DNA of 64,000 nucleotides from Eledone cirrhosa. Taxonomy: Eukaryota. Numbering within the stretch: the first letter of the stretch is position 1; each line of letters starts with the position of its first letter. Made by a program: the position numbers and the translations under genes. Below the pieces are notes generated by a model. The model was not told where the DNA came from, ran no database searches, and saw only the letters and a program-made list of their open reading frames with translations. The DNA lies in NCBI GenBank assembly GCA_964016885.1, contig OZ024741.1, positions 332,816,001 to 332,880,000 on the forward strand, written 5' to 3'. Shown piece by piece: positions 1 through 55,279 of the stretch.

Positions 1-211
1 AGAGGTTGAAGCCTTTAAAGAAGGCTGTGAGTTCTTTTCTGAACCTGTCACAAGCACGTGGGCCGCACTTAGTCATGGTCAAAAGACCATCAACACGGTA
101 CAAACCACCGCCCATGTTGGGGAATTCTTCCTTGATAGAGAAAAGAAGGAAAAGGCCGATAAGATCAGTAACCTCCGCAGAATCGCTGGCGCCCATACTC
201 ACGTCGAATGG
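1..211 (-). pseudogene. Penelope-like element reverse transcriptase fragment (runs off the window start)
   Basis: Manual minus-strand translation gives PFDVSMGASDSAEVTDLIGLFLL...GGLYRVDGLL...DRFRKELTAFFKGFNL. This matches the PLE RT pattern FDVxMGxxDxAExxxLxG...GLYRDDGL, with the first catalytic D changed to V. Confidence 0.8.
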
Positions 212-386
212 GATACTATTAGATATATATCTATATACATATGTATATATGTATATATGTATATATATATATACTTGTTTACCAGCAAATTGAATTGCCA
301 CCTGTCATATAATATCCCCCCTCTTCTTCCTTTCTTACAACTAATATAAGTACTTCAATTTTTCTCATTTTTTCCAATTCATCCAA

Positions 387-1283: not shown

Positions 1284-4200
1284 TATCATCAGCATCATCA
1301 TCATGGTTTAACGTCCATCTTCCACGCTAGCATGGGTTTGGACGGGAATTTTCCCACTTGAGGCAAGATTGGTTGTCTTGCTCGTATAGGACTGTCTGGC
1401 GGGTTTTCTACGGCTGGATGCCCTTCGTAACACCAACCACGTTTATAGTGTGGACTGAGAGGTTTTTACCGTGTTACCTACACGGCCACATTACAGCGTG
1501 GACTGTGTGTTTTTTTGTCGTGACACCTACACGACCTCATTTGTTTCGGACTAGATGTTGTGGTACCAACATAACTTTATATTGGAAGGAGTGGGGGTAG
1601 TGGGGTCGGGATGTATTTTTGTTAAGAGGTGCCAACTGACTGTAGGTTTCGCTTTGTATTTAGGCAAAGCGGGTCTTCTGTATTACTGCGTAGCACCAAA
1701 GATCTCGGTCCAGTGACATTTTCTTGGAGAGATGTAAGTGTGTAAGGTCGGAATTTATCAAGTCATCCCAGGTTTTTCTGGGTCTGCCTACTCCGTAGCT
1801 ACGGTCTATTTTTATCGCCCTGCACTTTTTTATACAGCTGTCATCTTTCATGCGCATCACGTGACCGTACCAACGTAGTCTTCTCTCGAGTAAACAGCAT
1901 CTGATCTCTCTTATTCCTAATTTCTCACTTAGTTCATTTATGCTTTGCCGTTCACGTATATTACTATTAAACATCTAACGGAGCATGCAAGCTTCGTTCC
2001 TCTCCAGTCTGCACAGATCCTCTGCACACAATGCCCATGTCTCACTGCCATGTAACATTGTTGTTCGTATGCAGGCATCATACAGTCTGCCTTTCATTTT
2101 TAGAGAGAAACCTTTAACGGCCAATAGTGGTATAAGCTCTCTGAATATTTTCCATCCGGTTCTGACTCTGGCTCCTGTATTTTCAGAGCACCCTCCACCA
2201 CTGCTGATTTTGTCACCCAGGTAATGGAAGGTGTCCACTATTTCTATAGAACCATCTGGGCAATGGAAGGAGCTAGTATCCTGTGGGCACTTGCTGCTAC
2301 TTATTGCACCTGACCACTGGCCACATATAAAATCTACGTTCTTAGATAGCTTACCTGTGATCTCACTACATCTTTTATGCACCCATACTTTGCATTTGGG
2401 ACATACAATGGAGTTTCTGCCTACTCCTTTCCTACACACTGAGCATGGCCATTTCCTAGATGGGACTGGTGCCCTATTTTCCTTCCTACATACTAGAACT
2501 TTAGTCTTAGACAAGTTTATTTTAAGGCCTTTTGATTCTAGGACATGATTCTATGTTTGGAATTTCATCTCTAGTTCAACCATTGATTCAGTTATGAGCA
2601 TTAGATCATCTGCATATAGAAGTTCCCATGGGCAGCCTGTCTTGAACTCCTCTGCTTTAGCCTGAAGGACAATAATAAATAGGAGGGGGCTAAGGAGAGA
2701 GCCCTCATAAACACCAACTTTTACACTAAATTCTTCACTATATTCGTTGTTAATTCTAACGTTGCTAACTGTTTCTTTATACATGGCTTGTATAGCTGTC
2801 ACAAACCATTCATCAACACCTAGTTTTATAAGAGCCCACCAGATAATGGAGCGGGGGACTCTGTCAAAGGCTTTCTCCAAGTCAACAAAAGCTAAGTATA
2901 GGGGTTTACTTTTAGCTAGGTACTTCTCCTGTAGTTGTCGTACAATGAAAAGAGCATCTGTGGTACTTTTCCCTGACACAAACCCGAACTGCATTTCATC
3001 TAGATCAATTCGCTCTCTGATTAGTTGCGCTATTACTTTTTCTGTGACCTTCATGACCTGGTCGATTTATTTAATGCCTCTATAGTTACCCCTATCTAGG
3101 GCATCTCATTTACCATTGTAGCAGTTAATGATGATGCTGCTACACCAGTCCTTCGGAACGACCCCATTCTGTATGACTTGGTTTATACTCCGGGTGACCA
3201 TAGTGTGTCCCACTGTTCCAGATGCTTTCAGCATTTCAGCAACTATTTCCGAAGGCCCGACCGCCTTGCCCGTCTTCATGTCTTTGATCGCCTTACTTAT
3301 TATACTACCTTCAACTTGCACTGCTGGTCCCTCTATTGGATCTATGTGGGGGAGACTGTCTTTCTCCCAATTATTCTCCTCATTGAGTAGCCTTTCGTAG
3401 TGACACTTCCAAGCTACCTTCTTATCAGCGTCAGTGATGGCAAGTACACCATCATCATTAAGGACACACTTCTCCCCGACAATATCACTGTTTTCCTTGA
3501 CACATTGCCTAGCAATCATGAACACCTCACGTTTTTGGTCCTCGCGTTGTAGAACATGCTTGAACTTCTTTCCTCTGCTTCCCTTCTTGCGAAGTACACT
3601 TGACCCCTATCTTCCCTCCTGGCCACTTGATAGTCTTCTCTACTTCCCCCATCCCACCATACTTTCCAAGCCTGCTTTTTGGCCTTAATTGACTCCTCCA
3701 CCTTACTGTTCCAGCACCATGTTACTCTCCTCCTGCCTATAGCCCTGCTCCAGCCACAGACATCATCTGCCGCCTTCAGCAGGTTAGCTTTCAGGAATTC
3801 CCACTGTTCCTCTATATTGTACGACTCTAAATGCTCTTCCTTACTGTTAAAAGCATCAAGTAATATGCTTTTAAATTTATTACTGGCTGTGAGGTCCTTT
3901 AGCTTCCATATTTTTCTCCTGAGGATAGTCCTCCTCTGTTGTCGAGTACGTCTTGTCCTGACTAAGAGGTCGCTGACTATGAGTCTATGTTGGGAGGTGC
4001 ATTCTTCATGGGGGAGGGATTTAGTGTTTACAACAGACACTCTATCACGTCTTCTGGTAAGGATATAATCTATCTGACTGGCGTGTTCCCCTGATATATA
4101 GGTGATCAAGTGATTGTCTCGTATTTTGAAGTTAGTGTTACAGATAGTTAGGTTATTTGCATCACAGAATTCCAGGATTCTGGAGCCTTCCTCATTTCTA

Positions 4201-4900
4201 GTACCAAACACATAGCCTCCATGGATTCCATCATAGCCATCACAATGTTGTCCAACGTGAGCATTTAGGTCTCCAGCAATAATTATGTAGTCACTGTCAG
4301 TTATTTGGGAGGTCGTGAGCATCAATGTCTCATAGAATCTGTCTTTTATAACGCCAGGCAGTCCGGATTGGGGAGCGTATGCAGATATTACTGTCACAGT
4401 AGTTCTATTTAGGACATGTCTTATTTTAATTATTCTGTCGCTCACTCTATTTACGTCTATTATCTTATCTACCCATTTTTCTGCTAACATGATTCCTCCC
4501 CCACCCAGCCCATTGTCATTTCCCACCCAGAAAAGCTTATAGCATCGTTTTTAACCCACAATGAATCTAGCAAACCTACCCCTCCACCTGGTCTCTTGGA
4601 TACAACAAACATCAACCTCCTTACGTTCAAGCATTTCTACAACCTCGTTAGAGCGACCTTTTAAGGTGCCTACATTCATGGTACCAACTCTGAAGTTTTG
4701 GATTGCGTTTGGTGGGTGGGAACGGTGGGGCGAGGGGAGGGTTGAGAGGGCTGGGTTTGGGGTTATGTTGGCCATCCACGGCCGAAATAAAGAGGAGTCC
4801 TTGCCTTTTTGTTCGGCAGTATGAGGTGAATTTGTCCGCTGACTTATGATTGGTCGAAATAATAATGGTGGCATGTGTGGGCGGATAGGAGAGGTATGGT
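1284..4900 (-). mobile_element. Near full-length decayed RTE-type LINE (APE endonuclease + RT)
   Basis: Consecutive minus ORFs give the endonuclease (TMNVGTL, IQETRW, YAPQ, GDLNAH, IDYIL, SQHRL) and the RT (QFGF, AFVDLEKAFDRV, LSPLLF, LLYADD), then a Cys-rich insert and the C-terminus [11 protein letters not shown]...GRPRKTW. There is a (GAT)n-type tail at the 3' end and several stops and frameshifts. Confidence 0.92.
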
Positions 4901-15896: not shown

Positions 15897-15932
15897 TCTT
15901 CTGATGAAGGACTAGCGTCCGAAACGTTAAGA
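15897..15932 (+). ncRNA. Minimal type I hammerhead motif (PLE-like), intact
   Basis: TCTT CTGATGA a GGAC tagc GTCC GAAA CG TT AAGA. Homologues that share about 90 nt of 3' flank lie at 38061-38096 (-) and 56205-56240 (+). Confidence 0.8.
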
Positions 15933-24600: not shown

Positions 24601-26041
24601 TCTATACATATATATACAACTGAAATTGTCTGTGTGTGTGTCCTGATTTTTGCAAAGTCTATACAAATCCACATTTCTACTCCGATTGACTTCAAACTTG
24701 CATTTATATATTCCTTGCGGTCTAAACATATTAACTGCAGCTTTTATTTTTCAATTTTCTGTTGTTAAAGGCGTGTTAGGCGCCGGTTAGCGACCTCTCT
24801 CTCTTTCTTAGCTTGTCTTTTTAGATAGATACATAGCTATAACGTCGCGTCCTTATAATATCTATCTGTATGTCTGGCTGTTTGCATTACAACATTATGA
24901 AAACATTGTTCTCATTGCTGATTATTATCTTCGATATTTTCCATTCAGGGAATGTCTTCACGAACCAAAGTATCGTCTTCCTGTTTTCCTCGATTGCAAC
25001 GTTTTTCGAAATATTTACTTCTGCATTCACAGATTGATTTTTTTAGTTTCAGAAGATCCCATTAAGGGTGAAAGCAGCGATTCTTTGCTTAAACTTTAAT
25101 CTGTTATTTTAATATATATATATATAATTATATATTCGTGTACAGATATTTTTGCATACACAAAAACAAAATATAAACCAATGTATTTATTTCACAAAAG
25201 CACAGACGGCTTATCGTTATTGTTACTGCCAATATTTAACACAAAAAAGTCCCACTACTTTTGGCACAAGGCCAGCAATTACATAGTCAACGGTTCGGAA
25301 ATCACATGCATCACTGATGAGTTTACTCCTTACTCTACCAGTTAGTCTTAGTGTACTTCGTCCTGCTTTTAGGTCATGCCTCGAAGGAAGAGATACTCCA
25401 TTGGCCTAAATACTGCGAAAGCAGCAAGAGAAAGAACAAGGCGGGCAAATGAATCGTCAGTGGAATTTGCTATTCGATGGTCGCAAGATGCTGAATGTAC
25501 TGCCACCAGAAGAGCACTTGAAACAAACCACCAACGAACCATTCGCTGAACCCTGTCAGCTTTGCAATGTCTATCAACAAATCCTAGGGTCAAACCCTAG
25601 CTGTTGCTGGTCTTCTTTTGGAAGAGTCATGTTTTTCATACGTTGGCTGCTCAAGAGTGGGAAGCAAGACAAATCTCTTTGCATATGCCTGACACGGAAG
25701 AACAAGGAACATTGTGTACAAGGAGGTGCTACAATCATTGTTTAGGTAGACAAGGCAGAAGGGGATATACACGATTGGCTGAAGAAGGATGAGACTGTGT
25801 TAGTAGTACGACCAACGGCTGCTATCACACCAACAGCAGCAAAAAACAACAACAAAAAAGAAAGGGAACGCAATTACATGCTTTTGAAAAATCTTAATGG
25901 AAAATTATTTGCCTAAGCACAAAATGTAGACACCACCCCCAGGCCGAGGTATTCCGTACTTCTCTGTACTGTTTCAGAAAGGAGGAATAAACATGCCAAT
26001 CTATGTTTAGAAGCCCGAGCAACGCCGGGCCATTCTGCTAG
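24601..26041 (+). mobile_element. Internally deleted, non-autonomous Helitron
   Basis: A|TC 5' end; 3' hairpin GCCCG-agcaacgc-CGGGC followed by CTAG|T. It contains a RepHel-like N-terminus (MPRRKRYSIG...RRANES, from 25376) joined to a Pif1-helicase C-terminus (FAMSINKS*GQTL...YVGCSRV...RNIVYKEVL). Confidence 0.88.
25045..25095 (+). ncRNA. Type I hammerhead motif with A4 core variant
   Basis: AGTTT CAGAAGA tCCC attaa GGGt GAAA GCA gcgattctt TGC TT AAACT. A second copy lies at 33154-33204 (-). Confidence 0.65.
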
Positions 26042-33099: not shown

Positions 33100-33137
<38 letters not shown>

Positions 33138-33153
33138 TAAAATAACAGATTAA

Positions 33154-33204
33154 AGTTTAAGCAAAGAATCGGTGCTTTCACCCTTAACGGGATCTTCTGA
33201 AATA
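33154..33204 (-). ncRNA. Second copy of the A4-variant hammerhead motif
   Basis: Minus strand reads TTT CAGAAGA tCCC gttaa GGGt GAAA GCA ccgattctt TGC TT AAA. Confidence 0.6.
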
Positions 33205-33301
33205 TTTGCTCTACAGTTCTTATATATTTAATATATATTTATCCCTATCAAGCCCTCTTTGGATTTTAGTCTTCAAATTTATTATTACTACAATATATAT
33301 A

Positions 33302-46133: not shown

Positions 46134-48964
46134 GGGAGACATGATATGAAGCTTAAAAAACACTTGTGAATAGTGAAGTTTTAAATCAACATATGAAAAA
46201 TAAATTAAGATTGATGTATGAGATTGGGAAAAAGTGAGGTGAGGTTGGAAAAGGTAAGGAAGAGGAAGAGATGAGAGTAAAGGATGGTGGGGGGAGGAGT
46301 ATAAGAAGGAAGGATGAGAGAGGAGGAGAGATGGGTGATAGAGAGAGAGAGATAGCCTTTATAACTGAGAAAAAATATATATTGTCTCACAGAGAGAAAT
46401 TGAAAAGCCGTTGGAAGATAATAGATAATTTAGAATATTTTGAAATTAAAAGTTAATGAGGTTTATGCATGAAGAAAAAAGAATTAAGAATAGTATTAAA
46501 TTACGGTTTCTATAACCTTAATATTATTAAGAACATTATACGTGATCTCTTTAAGCAACATAACCTTAAAATTGAATTTGATAACAACGTCAAACTAGCT
46601 AACTTCTTGGATATATCCCTTAATCTTGACACTGGCCTATATTACCCTTACCATAAAAACAATGAGAATCTAAATTATGTTAATTTTAAATTTAACCACC
46701 CCACTAACATTAAAAATGCTATAGTCAGTAATATTGGAAAAAGAATCTCAAACCTATCCTCTAATAAAGATATCTTCGATGCTAACGCCAATTACTATAA
46801 TAATGCGCTTTCTAAAGCCGGCTATCCTGATAAAATTAAATACAGTAAAGAAACCAATCCTAGAAGGTCTTACAGTAAAATAATTAATTATGAACATTCC
46901 AATAACTTAAATAAAAGACCTAGATACAAAAATATAATCTGGTATAATGCTCCTTTCTCTATTTCTATTAATAATAATATTCCTAAACTATTCTTTAGGG
47001 CCTTAGATAAATGCTTCCCTCCCTCACATATCTATAGTAAAATCTTTAACAAACATTCAATAAAATTTTCTTATTCCACCTCTTCCAACATCTCTAGCAT
47101 TATCTCTAAACACAACAATAAAATATTAAATAATAAATCACATCCTTCCAACACTGAGCGTCATAATAATAGCAGTAGTACTCCCGACTTCATTGTTAAC
47201 TCTAGGCTAGATTCTGTAAACTTAAATACGACGTCAAACGTAACTTCGTTGAATGTTCATAATACCAATCTAAATCAGAAACTATTATTCCTATCGTAAA
47301 TAACTTCTCCAATCCAATTCCTCCTATAAATAACAATAGGTCACTTGTTAATAACTCTGTTAATTTCTCTAATCGTAATTGCAATTGCCCTGTTAGAACT
47401 AAATGTCCTCTTAATAACCACTGTCTTGATAAAAACTTAGTCTATGAATGTAAAGTTATAACTGATACCAATTCCTTTACCTCTTTCGGTTCCACCTCCA
47501 CTTCCTTCAAAGCTAGATTTTATAATCACAATTCGTATTTTAGATACCAACTTAAAAGAACTAACACGGCACTCTCGGAACTCATATGGTCCTTGAAAGA
47601 CAAAAATATTAACTATAACATCTCTTGGAGGAAGGTTTGTTCTGCCTTTCCTTACCTGAATTCTTCCCTATCCAGAACATGCAATCTCTGCCTAGCCGAG
47701 AAATTTACCATTATATCTAATTTCAATTCTATAATAAATAGACGCACGGATTTATTTTCTCTCTGCTTGCATAAATTCCACAGAACATTCCATAAAGTAT
47801 ACAGCTAATATCTAATACCTTACTAGTTTAAAATCCTTTTTCTCAAAGGCTTATATATCTTTTACAAATATACCCATCTTTCTACCTTATTTCAATATTA
47901 TTTATTAAATATTATATAATACAATTTACTCATTCTATATCATTCCTCTTTATCATTTTCCTTTCTTCTTTTTTTCTTTTTAATTTCTAACCTCTAATCT
48001 GTACTTTTTCTTCCCAACTACTTCTCTATTCTTATTATTACTCACCACAACATTATCCATTCTGCCATCTTTCCTCATATCTCTGGCCATAAAAATTATT
48101 TTTTTAATACATTATAGTATTACCATTAGAAGTCCTTCGTAAACATATAATTTTTTGACGTTAGATTTTTTTTCTTCCTTAAATGTTTCTTATTTCCTCC
48201 ATCCTTTCATGCTCGTTTTAAACTACTACTTAATTTGACTTTTACATATTACAATACATAAAAACAAACTTAAACCCTAACTAATTTCTTTTAATATATT
48301 ATATTATTACCATTAGAAAATATTTCGTAACTTTTTGATGTTAGATATTTTCTTCCTTAAATATTCTTTTCTTCTTTCCTTCCGCGCTCATTTTAAAACA
48401 AAATATTTACGTACACATATTACATTACATAAAAACAAACTTAAACCCTAACTAATTCCTCTAAATTCATGACTCATTCATTCTTCTCCCTCTTTTTACA
48501 TTATATCCTTAATAACATTAATATTTTTATTTTAATAATACATATTAATAAATTCTTTTCCTCGCACATATTATTAAACCCTTCAATATACAAACCTTAA
48601 TTTAATACTATTCTTAATTCCTTTTTCTTCATGCATAAACCTCATTAACTTTTAATTTCAAAATCTTTTAAATTATCTATTATCTTCCAACGGCTTTTCA
48701 ATTTCTCTCTGTGAGACAATATATATATTTTTCTCAGTTGTAAAGGCACTCTCACTCTCTCCATCACCCATCTCTCCTCTTCTCTCATCCTTCCTTCTTA
48801 TACTCCTCCCCCCACCATCCTTTACTCTCATCTCTTCCTCTTCCTTACCTTTTCCAACCCCCCCCCCCTCACTGTTTCCCAATCTCATACATCAATCTTA
48901 ATTTATTTTTCATATGTTGATTTAAAACTTCACTATTCACAAGTGTTTTTTAAGCTTCATATCA

Positions 48965-49893: not shown

Positions 49894-51096
49894 TTCAAAA
49901 GGAATATAAATTAAAATAAGCAAAGAATGTTACATAAATGTAATGTTCCATATATTGGTATTTCACTATGGTGTCCTGGGTATATCTATTGTCTGCCAGA
50001 GTCAAGCAGTATTCTTCTGTCGAGGCTGCATTGTGTGAGATCTGCCTATGGGTAACAAGATAGCCGCCAATGGACATATTTACCTTACTAATTAGAGGGT
50101 GGTTTCAGGGGAAGTAACTCCTCGCGAGATTAGAAATTGTGGGTAGTTTATAGTTAAGTGCTAATTTTTTAATTTTTTAATTGAGAGATAATATACTTAC
50201 TCTAGTAACACACCTCCCCCATCTAATCCTTCTAGCACTGACCAACCGCTTAGGTTAAACAACCCTACTCTCACTAACCGCAGAAGTAACTGCAACTGCC
50301 GTTACCCAAATGCATGCCCACTAAATGGACATTGCCTGACACCCAATATAGTTTATAGGTGCACGGTTAAAACTGCTTCGCATACCAGCTCCTATATCGG
50401 GTCTACCTCTAACCCTTTTAAGGTACGCTATAACGCGCACTCTTTTTCCTTCCTAGACCCTAACAACAGATGTTCGACATCTCTAGCTAGGCTCATTAAA
50501 AACCTTAAATTAACCAACATTGAACACTCACTAACATGGGATATCTTGGTTAGGGCCTAACCGTTTAATGGATGAAGAAAATCTTGTGACTTCTGTCTTA
50601 CCGAAGCATATTACATAACTCTATCACGACATCTACCGATTAACTATAGAACGAAGGTAACTTTTCAACATCGAAGGGCTAATTCCTTCGCCAACAGAAT
50701 ATTTGACCCAACATAGTCATCTATCCCCATTTTTACTTGTAGCTAAGAAGTTAAATAGTTATAGCTAACTTAGATAATTATAAGTTACCTCCCGTATATT
50801 GTCTCTCAATTAAAAAATTAAAAAATTAGCACATAACTATAAACTACCGACAATTTCTAATCTCTCGAGGAGTTACTTCCCCTGAAACCCCCCTCTAATT
50901 AGTAAGGGAAATATATCCATTGGCGGCCATCTTGTTACCCATAGGCAGATCTCACACAATGCAGCCTCGACAGAAGAATACTGCTTGACTATGGCAGACA
51001 ATAGACATACCCAGGACACCATAGTGAAATACCAATATATGGAACATTACATTTATGTAACATTCTTTGCTTATTTTAATTTATATTCCTTTTGAA

Positions 51097-52142: not shown

Positions 52143-53742
52143 TTAAAAAAACCCAAAAGTAATGTAAGTAAGGATATATTGTGAGATGAGCATGAATAAG
52201 TTAGATGAAAGTGAGAAAAAAATAATGAATAGAGGATGAATAATCTAACATAAAAAAAAATGTTTATGTTTACGAAGGATTTTTTCAAGGTGATATAAAG
52301 TATTGTGTAATAATTGTTTCTATGTTAGGCACAGTGAGAAAAGGTACAGATTAGGGGTTAGAAATTAAAAGAAAAAGAAAAGGAAAAGGAAGAAAGGTTA
52401 AGTGATAAATAGGAGTGATATAGAATATAATAAATAACTTTGAAATAAGGTAGAAACATGGGTATATTTTTAAAGAAGTATATATATATATATATATGTG
52501 CCTTTGAGAAAAGGATTCTGAATTGATAAAGTTTAAGATATTAGCTGTATACTTTATGGAAAGTTCTGTGGAATTTATGCAAGCAGATAGAAAACAAGTC
52601 AGTGCGTCTATTTATTATAGAATCTAAATTAGATATAATGGTAAATTTTTCATTTAGACAGAGATTGCAAGTCTTGGATAGAGAACTGTTCAAGTATGAA
52701 GAAGCAGAGGAAACCTTTTTCCAAGAGATGTTATATTTAATATTTGTGTCTTTCAAGGACCATATGAGTTCTGAGAGAGCCGTGTTGGTTCTTTTAAGTT
52801 GGTATTTAAAAGACGAATGATGATTATAAAGACCAGCTTTAAAGGAGGTGGAAGTGGAGCCAAATAGGTGAAGGAATTGGTGTCAGTTATAACTTTACAT
52901 TCGTAGATTAAGTTTTTATCAAGACAATGGTTGTTAAGAGAATATTTATTTTTAGCAGGGCAATTGCAATTGCGATTAGAGAGATTATTAACGAGTGACC
53001 TAGTGTTATCTATAGAAGGAATTGGATTGGAGAAGTTATTTGCGATAGGAATAATAGTTTCTTGATTTAGAATAGGATTAAGAACATTTAGCGAAGTTGT
53101 GTTTGACGTTGTATTTGGGTTTGCAGAAATTAGCCTAGAGTTTACAATGACGTCGGGAGTACTATTACTATTATTATGATATTCAGTGTTGGAAGGAAGA
53201 GATTTAGTATTTAGTATTTTATTGTTGTGTTTAGAGATAATGTTGGAAATGTTGGAGGATGTTGAATAGGAACATTTTATAGTGTGTTTGTTAAATATTT
53301 TACTATAGATATGTGAGGGAGGGAAGCATTTATTTAAGGCACTAAAGAATAATTTAGGAATATTATTATTAATAGAGATGGAGAAAGGAGCATTATACCA
53401 GATTATGTTTTTGTATCTAGGTCTTTTATTAAAGTTATTGGAATGATCATGATTAATTATTCTACTGTAAGATCTTATAGAATTTGTTTCTTTATTATAT
53501 TTGATTTTATCAGGATAGCCGGCTTTAGAAAGCGCGTTATTATAGTAATTGGCGTTAGCATCGAAGATGTTTTTATTAGAAGATAGGTTAGATATTCTTT
53601 TTCCAATATTACTAACTATAGCATTCTTAATATTAGTAGGGTGGTTAGATTTAAAATTAACATAATTTAGGTTCTCATTGTTTTTATGGTAAGGGTAATA
53701 TAGGCCAGTGTCAAGATTAAGAGATACTAACTAATTTCTTGG

Positions 53743-54237
53743 ATGTATCTCTTAATCTCTTCTATAGATAACACTAGGTCACTCGTTAATAATCTCTCTA
53801 ATCGCAATTGCAATTGCCCTGCTAAAAATAAATGTCCTCTCAACAACCATTGTCTTGATAAAAACTTAATCTACGAATGTAAAGTTATAACTGACACCAA
53901 TTCCTTCACCTATTTTGGCTCCACTTCCACCTCCTTTAAAGCTGGTCTTTATAATCATCATTCGTCTTTTAAATACCAACTTAAAAGAACCAACACGGCT
54001 CTCTCAGAACTCATATGGTCCTTGAAAGACACAAATATTAAATATAACATCTCTTGGAAAAAGGTTTCCTCTGCTTCTTCATACTTGAACAGTTCTCTAT
54101 CCAAGACTTGCAATCTCTGTCTAAATGAAAAATTTACCATTATATCTAATTTAGATTCTATAATAAATAAACGCACTGACTTGTTTTCTATCTGCTTGCA
54201 TAAATTCCACAGAACTTTCCATAAAGTATACAGCTAA
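53743..54237 (+). pseudogene. PLE GIY-YIG endonuclease domain, open frame, 5' truncated
   Basis: CNCPAKNKCPLNNHCL..LIY...YFGST..FKAG..NH..SF...CNLCLNEK...CLH; the conserved Arg of FKxR is replaced by Gly. Confidence 0.85.
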
Positions 54238-55208: not shown

Positions 55209-55279
55209 TATTTTATCTGATGAAAACACAAATGTTATTGCATGATGATATTTGTTTTTGAAATGCGCATAATAAAATA
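55209..55279 (+). ncRNA. Intact type I hammerhead motif in the PLE-B right arm
   Basis: TATTTTAT CTGATGA AAAcACAAATGTTATT gcat GATGATATTTGTtTTT GAAA TGCGCA TA ATAAAATA. Confidence 0.88.

What the first reader, a model, noticed from the sequence alone, without database searches (positions are those of the whole stretch)
25045..25095. Recurring non-canonical core CAGAAGA (U4 to A) in two independent copies
Both copies keep all three helices and the same A4, with a U-U juxtaposition at the base of helix II, while differing in the loops. This suggests a family-level variant that standard CUGANGA searches would miss.
Basis: partly seen in the sequence, partly recalled or inferred. Interest (0 to 1): 0.7.

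Follow-up and report, generated by a model that had tools for sequence, protein, structure and literature searches.

The report
Retrotransposon hammerhead with fixed A4 core
A very common Penelope-like jumping gene in this animal genome carries a hammerhead ribozyme motif in which a normally fixed core letter (U4) reads A in 99% of about 20,000 copies and in older relatives, while the rest of the core and stems stayed unchanged, so it is likely a natural, slowed-down ribozyme variant, although cutting is untested.

Summary
The motif is real: a type I hammerhead fold at 25029-25104 with A at core position 4 and a U-U pair closing helix II. The two copies are not independent. Both are 3' ends of one Hydra-clade-like Penelope retrotransposon (telomerase-like RT). 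Copy 2 lacks most of helix I; copy 1 is cargo in a Helitron-like element. Genome-wide, 20,564 of 20,782 exact matches have A4. Older lineages also have it (86 of 88, no U4). Between old and young lineages 65 of 141 silent ORF sites and 10 of 20 loop sites changed, but 0 of 56 core and helix sites, so the fold was likely kept by selection after A4 arose. Related elements elsewhere have U4 (69 of 71 hits; 25 of 25 published families). U-U is a known clade trait. There is no covariation, no RNA data and no genomic footprint of cleavage. Best reading: an attenuated, probably protein-assisted ribozyme (0.55); main rival: a catalytically dead but needed fold (0.25). I found no natural U4A in the papers searched. 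This scan noted the same family twice before on other pieces of this genome.

The parts
25029..25104 (+). Complete type I hammerhead-like fold, copy 1, with extended helix I (9 bp + 7-nt bulge + 5 bp)
25050..25056 (+). Core C3-A4-G5-A6-A7-G8-A9; A4 at 25051
25057..25069 (+). U10.1 and U11.1 mismatch closing a 3-bp helix II with a 5-nt loop
   Evidence: clade trait
25070..25090 (+). G12-A13-A14-A15.1, helix III (G15.2-C16.2, 4 bp + 7-nt loop), U16.1, U17; predicted cut between 25090 and 25091 (C-U-U triplet)
   Evidence: cut site inferred from hammerhead numbering
24923..25119 (+). Last ~200 nt of the Penelope-like element's 3' pseudo-LTR, 87% identical to full-length copy L104
24601..26041 (+). 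Helitron-like non-autonomous host element (A|TC start, subterminal hairpin 26014-26029, CTAG|T end) that carries the fragment
   Evidence: Helitron end motifs recalled, not tested against a library
33130..33202 (-). Copy 2: 5'-truncated pseudo-LTR end with the same A4 core (33193-33199); helix I reduced to 3 bp
33200..33295 (+). Inverted copy of the element's ~90-nt 3' tail joined head-to-head to copy 2
1..224 (-). ORF fragment of the same element family (96% to L104 1979-2202)

Best explanation
The motif is the hammerhead of the 3' pseudo-LTR of a Penelope-like retrotransposon family in which A4 is fixed, and it is likely an attenuated but still catalytic ribozyme kept by selection. Shown: the element context, A4 fixation in young and old lineages, and stasis of core and helices while loops and silent sites changed. 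Inferred: in tandem transcripts the upstream hammerhead would cut after U17, about 155 nt before the ATG, and free a unit-length RNA. The downstream one must usually stay uncut, because genomic copies end about 30 or about 115 nt beyond the cut site, so reverse transcription starts 3' of it. A slow core (A4, U-U, 3-bp helix II, C-U-U site), perhaps switched on by the element's own protein as reported for another Penelope element, fits both needs.
For: Context: L104 and L096 hold a ~700-codon ORF upstream of a sense-strand motif, with inverted or tandem pseudo-LTRs and (TA)n flanks; the AlphaFold model (pLDDT 87) has TERT as best Foldseek hit, E 1e-9. Fixation: 20,564 of 20,782; 90 of the first 100 of 281 older-type hits; 86 A4, 1 C4, 1 unscorable, 0 U4 of 88 hits anchored outside the core (hand count); 7 of 7 old-type motifs beside ORF-anchored old copies, query locus excluded. 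Selection: between old and young majority sequences 65 of 141 fourfold sites differ (corrected 0.72) and 45 of 430 amino acids; 0 of 14 core, 0 of 42 helix, 10 of 20 loop/bulge/N7 and 22 of 127 flank sites differ. Core+helix against loops p 2e-7, against flanks p 3e-4; core alone against loops p 0.002. N7, the free core position, is the only core site that changed. Literature: position 4 tolerates a natural U4C, and U10.1-U11.1 is the best tolerated mismatch (PMC3088659, passages); no U4 escape mutant among 50 plaques selected against cleavage (PMC4075628); a Penelope hammerhead is protein-assisted and uncut RNA is the insertion substrate in vitro (PMC11167929, passages).
Against: No cleavage data. 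In a full mutational scan all CUGA-turn single mutants had low activity (PMC9901934, passages; U4A value not seen). Core alone is not significantly more conserved than the pseudo-LTR flanks (0 of 14 against 22 of 127, p 0.13). No compensatory change exists between lineages, and double mutants of the middle helix II pair are compensatory in 27 of 65 against 28.8 expected. Copies starting at the predicted cut site are not clearly enriched (167 against 117 at a control site; both shaped by microhomology). The hammerhead fold lies 2.1-2.4 kcal/mol above the MFE and proximal helix I has pairing probability under 0.1. The older hammerhead sets were found through similarity to the young one, and the 'old' majority mixes subfamilies. 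Hammerhead cleavage was dispensable for insertion in vitro.
Confidence: 0.55

Rival explanations
1. A4 killed catalysis, but the hammerhead-shaped RNA (or its cDNA) is still needed as a binding or priming platform for the RT-endonuclease, so helices and core stay conserved.
For: CUGA-turn mutants have low activity; cleavage dispensable for insertion in vitro; Penelope clades without canonical hammerheads reach very high copy numbers (PMC8557442); three suboptimal traits coincide (A4, U-U, C-U-U; G15.2 in 0 of 71 related hits); no cleavage footprint; flanks also constrained.
Against: All 14 core sites, the unpaired ones included, are unchanged while N7 and the loops drift. That matches catalytic constraint and is not obviously needed for a plain scaffold.
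Confidence: 0.25
2. A4 is a fully compensated new core solution and the RNA cuts as a monomer about as fast as U4 relatives, helped by the long helix III and a contact between the helix I bulge and loop 2.
For: Monomer-competent helix III with a 7-nt loop, unlike the short-looped helix III of the published families; 14-bp helix I with a bulge facing loop 2; long stasis; tertiary contacts proposed to offset core variants.
Against: A4 absent from 25 of 25 published families and from 69 of 71 related hits, the one A4 hit being chance-level; bulge and loop 2 change freely with no sign of pairing; copies extend past the cut site, so templates were uncut.
Confidence: 0.13
3. A4 is an inactivating founder mutation in a relic that was merely amplified by the retrotransposon and by Helitron capture, with no function.
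For: Copies decay neutrally; some copies, including copy 1, ride in Helitron-like elements; a short palindrome centred on position 4 offers an easy U-to-A route.
Against: 0 of 56 core and helix changes over 0.7 silent substitutions per site, with A4 present in both lineages; Helitron-type flanks are a minority of the first 30 A4 loci.
Confidence: 0.07

Closest known systems
Hydra-clade Penelope-like elements and their type I hammerheads (PMC8557442, section 11 and File S2)
   Same: RT plus C-terminal endonuclease-like ORF, DKT and CxCX5C motifs, (TA)n targets, sense hammerhead near the 3' end, U-U at the base of a short helix II (14 of 25 families), U17 common.
   Different: All 25 listed families have U4 and C15.2 with a short helix III loop; this family has A4, G15.2-C16.2, a 7-nt loop 3, a bulged 14-bp helix I, RWR in place of RWK, about 3.25 kb, and over 20,000 copies.
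Natural hammerhead core variants (U4C viroid variant, U3-A8, A6C, U10.1-U11.1; PMC3088659, PMC4209133)
   Same: A single departure from the consensus core in an otherwise intact fold; position 4 already known to vary once.
   Different: U4A is not named in the passages read; here a purine is fixed at position 4 through several subfamilies rather than seen in isolated sequences.
Poseidon element hammerhead of Anolis (PMC11167929)
   Same: Hammerhead in the pseudo-LTR, reverse transcription from sites downstream, tail present on some copies.
   Different: Minimal fold with tested, protein-assisted cleavage; no such test exists for this family.

Membership tests
Hammerhead ribozyme, type I | Three helices around the core, helix I open | tested here: met
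   Copy 1 and full-length copies; copy 2 has only 3 bp of helix I
Hammerhead ribozyme, type I | C3, G5, A6, G8, A9, G12, A13, A14, A15.1-U16.1, H17 | tested here: met
Hammerhead ribozyme, type I | U4 of the CUGA turn | tested here: not met
   A4 in 20,564 of 20,782; hence filed as a variant that works like a hammerhead, not as a verified member
Hammerhead ribozyme, type I | Watson-Crick pair 10.1-11.1 | tested here: not met
   U-U; documented tolerated variant
Hammerhead ribozyme, type I | Rfam hammerhead model at gathering score | tested here: not met
   0 hits in the window; canonical-core motifs at 15901 and 56209 were missed too, so this test is weak
Hammerhead ribozyme, type I | Covariation in the helices | tested here: inconclusive
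   Helices invariant between lineages; 27 of 65 compensatory double mutants against 28.8 expected
Hammerhead ribozyme, type I | Tertiary contact between helix I and loop 2 | not tested
   Bulge position is compatible; no modelling done
Hammerhead ribozyme, type I | Site-specific self-cleavage after position 17 | not testable with these tools
   No RNA run listed; genomic footprint inconclusive
Penelope-like element, Hydra clade | Telomerase-like reverse transcriptase | tested here: met
   Best Foldseek hit TERT 3du5, E 1.2e-9; Pfam and PDB sequence searches blank
Penelope-like element, Hydra clade | C-terminal GIY-YIG endonuclease without CCHH, with CxxC and CxH | tested here: inconclusive
   Motifs visible by eye in L104; PF01541 precomputed on 1 of 120 listed homologs; the C-terminal end was not in the model
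Penelope-like element, Hydra clade | RWK, DKT and CxCX5C motifs | tested here: met
   RWR (conservative change), DKT, CNCRNRVDC in L096
Penelope-like element, Hydra clade | Pseudo-LTRs in tandem or inverted arrangement, optional tail, (TA)n targets | tested here: met
Penelope-like element, Hydra clade | Canonical hammerhead in the pseudo-LTR | tested here: not met
   Motif present but with A4
Penelope-like element, Hydra clade | Phylogenetic placement among published Hydra families | not tested
   No tree built with the published sequences

The most novel reading that the evidence does not exclude
A natural hammerhead that works without the uridine turn's U: an A4 core, selected for over 0.7 silent substitutions per site, that tunes cleavage down or makes it depend on the element's protein, so that one RNA can both be freed from tandem transcripts and serve uncut as the insertion template, helping this family expand to tens of thousands of copies.
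Probability: 0.4. Interest if true: 0.7.

Novelty: new variant of a known kind. Interest (0 to 1): 0.5.

Why it matters
U4 is one of the letters that hammerhead searches and filters require. A purine fixed there in a very large, evolutionarily constrained family would widen the known catalytic core and show that censuses miss whole families. It also offers a direct test of an open question, what hammerheads do for Penelope elements, because a U4 family with the same U-U architecture lives in the same genome as a natural control.

Tried and rejected
Rfam: no hit. Generic repeat finder swamped by microsatellites. The 848-aa ORF beside a copy in L093 is an unrelated LINE-type RT, not the parent. 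Pfam and PDB sequence searches with the parent ORF were blank. A second A4 family was suspected and rejected: 92 of the first 100 of 134 hits have U4, 4 have A4, 4 have C4. Covariation among copies: none. Footprint of cleavage in 5' ends: 167 against 117, not interpretable. Expression: no RNA holder listed; contigs of 4 runs showed no other letter at position 4 above 3%, but cover in two of them was thin (37 and 3 contigs) and the run kind is unknown. Literature searches without a natural U4A: and supplement searches 70 (first 6 places per term only) and 80. Papers seen: PMC4209133 parts 1-2 of 4; PMC8557442 passages, section 11, supplement parts 1-2 of 59; passages only of PMC11167929, PMC3088659, PMC9901934, PMC3376415, PMC13725137, PMC6155905; PMC4075628 part 1 of 2; bioRxiv 10.64898/2026.07.22.740005 part 1 of 5 (its supplements are closed). 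Four papers that could bear on U4A were not held, among them a 2017 study of Penelope hammerhead variants (recalled), and figures such as Fig. 5 of PMC3088659 could not be seen, so absence from print is not established.

Full report
Observation. The window holds a type I hammerhead-like fold at 25029-25104 on the + strand: core CAGAAGA at 25050-25056 (A4 = 25051), U10.1 opposite U11.1, a 3-bp helix II, GAAA, a 4-bp helix III with a 7-nt loop, U16.1 and U17, and a helix I of 5 bp continued by 9 bp behind a 7-nt bulge. A second copy lies at 33130-33202 on the - strand. It is 94% identical over 89 nt but starts 3 nt before C3, so most of helix I is missing. Rfam finds nothing in the window. The segment does not fold better than shuffles, and the hammerhead conformation is 2.1-2.4 kcal/mol above the MFE in intact copies.

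What it belongs to. The motif is the 3' end of a high-copy repeat in a 3.0-Gb animal genome. Paired copies led to full-length elements: L104 has an inverted pseudo-LTR (743-1035), an ORF from 1065 to about 3185, the sense-strand motif at 4133 and a 90-nt tail; L096 has the tandem arrangement and a 645-codon open stretch. The protein has RWR, DKT, YRDD and CxCX5C motifs that match the description of the Hydra clade of Penelope-like elements (PMC8557442 section 11). It has 567 homologs at E <= 1e-20 among 7,995 candidates scored, and its model resembles telomerase RT best. Clade placement rests on motifs; no tree was built. Copy 1 is the last 200 nt of such an element inside a Helitron-like element (24601-26041) whose parts recur beside the motif in other loci; copy 2 is a truncated insertion with an inverted tail. 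The two copies are therefore not independent.

How fixed is A4. A 29-nt exact pattern gives 20,564 matches with A4 and 218 with another base; of the first 100 of those 218, 40 have U, 34 G and 26 C (hand count). Older subfamilies with other loops also carry A4: 90 of the first 100 of 281 hits (4 of the 5 U4 loci inspected are fold-back junctions), and 86 of all 88 hits anchored outside the core, with 1 C4, 1 unscorable and no U4 (hand count; 29 of the 30 fetched). Among 30 loci found through an old ORF fragment, the 7 old-type motifs other than the query's own all have A4. Outside this lineage U4 rules: 25 of 25 published Hydra-clade families, 69 of 71 motif hits in 57 of 78 related metagenome loci, the single A4 hit being at chance level, and 92 of the first 100 of 134 hits in a second U-U family of this genome. 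U-U at the base of helix II is common in the clade (14 of 25; 38 of 69) and is not novel.

Is it under selection. Majority sequences of the young lineage (11 loci) and of older copies (29 loci) differ at 65 of 141 fourfold sites and 45 of 430 amino acids. In the pseudo-LTR, old and young sets (30 loci per set) differ at 0 of 14 core sites, 0 of 42 helix sites, 10 of 20 loop, bulge and N7 sites and 22 of 127 flank sites. Core and helices II-III were read from the set anchored outside them, helix I from the set anchored on the core. Core plus helices against loops gives p 2e-7, against flanks p 3e-4; core alone against loops p 0.002, against flanks only p 0.13. Since both lineages have A4, the constraint acted after A4 arose. 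Limits: the old sets were found by likeness to the young motif, the old majority mixes subfamilies, and invariance is not covariation. Double mutants of the middle helix II pair are compensatory in 27 of 65 family-derived rows among the first 100 of 125 listed (35 rows from other families, unrelated DNA or with deletions were dropped), against 28.8 expected, as neutral decay predicts.

Mechanism. Shown: context, fixation, stasis. Inferred: in a tandem transcript such as L096 the upstream motif would cut after U17 about 155 nt before the ATG. Genomic copies end at L104 4202 or near 4290, beyond the cut site at 4172/4173, so their templates were uncut at the 3' motif. A slow or protein-gated ribozyme serves both needs. 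For another Penelope element the hammerhead cut only with protein, and uncut RNA was the insertion substrate (PMC11167929 passages). Position 4 is among the more tolerant core sites (natural U4C, PMC3088659; no U4 escape mutants, PMC4075628), but CUGA-turn mutants were of low activity in a full scan (PMC9901934). That A cannot donate the U-turn hydrogen bond of U4 is my recalled structural knowledge. I found no direct sign of cleavage: no RNA run was listed, and copies starting at the cut site number 167 against 117 at a control site, both dominated by microhomology junctions (28 and 24 of 30 inspected were called truncations). I put 0.55 on attenuated catalysis, 0.25 on a dead but needed fold, 0.13 on full compensation and 0.07 on a functionless relic.

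A possible origin of A4. Position 4 is the centre of a short palindrome when N7 is A. 669 loci are perfect head-to-head junctions centred on it, reading U4 on one strand and A4 on the other. U4 copies are enriched near 5' junctions (9 of 16 against 6 of 30 for A4, p 0.02; 2 of 14 for G4 and C4). Template switching could thus interconvert U4 and A4. This is an inference from a small sample.

Novelty and verdict. It works like a Hydra-clade pseudo-LTR hammerhead but fails the U4 criterion, so it is filed as a new variant of a known kind, activity unproven. No natural U4A turned up in the searches listed under Tried and rejected, but four relevant papers and several figures and supplements were out of reach. 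Two earlier notes of this scan describe the same family on other pieces of this genome and reach the same reading; they are unchecked AI notes and not independent support, and my reading was written down before I saw them. Interest 0.5: a real, well-supported core variant with a cheap decisive assay, in a known class of element.

Noticed in passing
genome-wide; L225-L234, L162/L163: 669 perfect fold-back junctions centred on hammerhead position 4; one strand reads a canonical U4 core without a proper helix I.
   Followed up: partly
window 24601-26041; L003, L022, L026, L028 and others: Helitron-like non-autonomous elements have captured the pseudo-LTR end and spread it as DNA.
   Followed up: partly
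window 15901 (+) and 56209 (+): Minimal hammerheads with a canonical U4 core, of another Penelope-like family.
   Followed up: no
window 46460-47808, 50285-50509, 52748-54237; motifs at 55217 (+) and 51541 (-): Inverted fragments of a distant Hydra-like element (33-55% protein identity) with canonical U4 hammerheads and a long helix II.
   Followed up: partly
L245:2400, L272:1769, L308:1938: U3-A8 core covariants in Hydra-like elements from metagenomes.
   Followed up: no
L305:2168: Well-formed hammerhead with C4 in a metagenome contig, a possible natural U4C.
   Followed up: no
L085:924, L093:8261: A further hammerhead family with a very long helix II, seen with C4 in one copy and U4 in another.
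   Followed up: no
L104 3773-4049: A 137-nt tandem duplication (82% identical) in the 3' UTR just upstream of the hammerhead.
   Followed up: no
L093 2506-5049 (-): An 848-aa open LINE-type RT ORF with zf-RVT between two copies, unrelated to the family.
   Followed up: no
L091, L092 (C3, 139.29-139.50 Mb): A local cluster of repeated fold-back copies carrying C4, probably a segmental amplification.
   Followed up: partly
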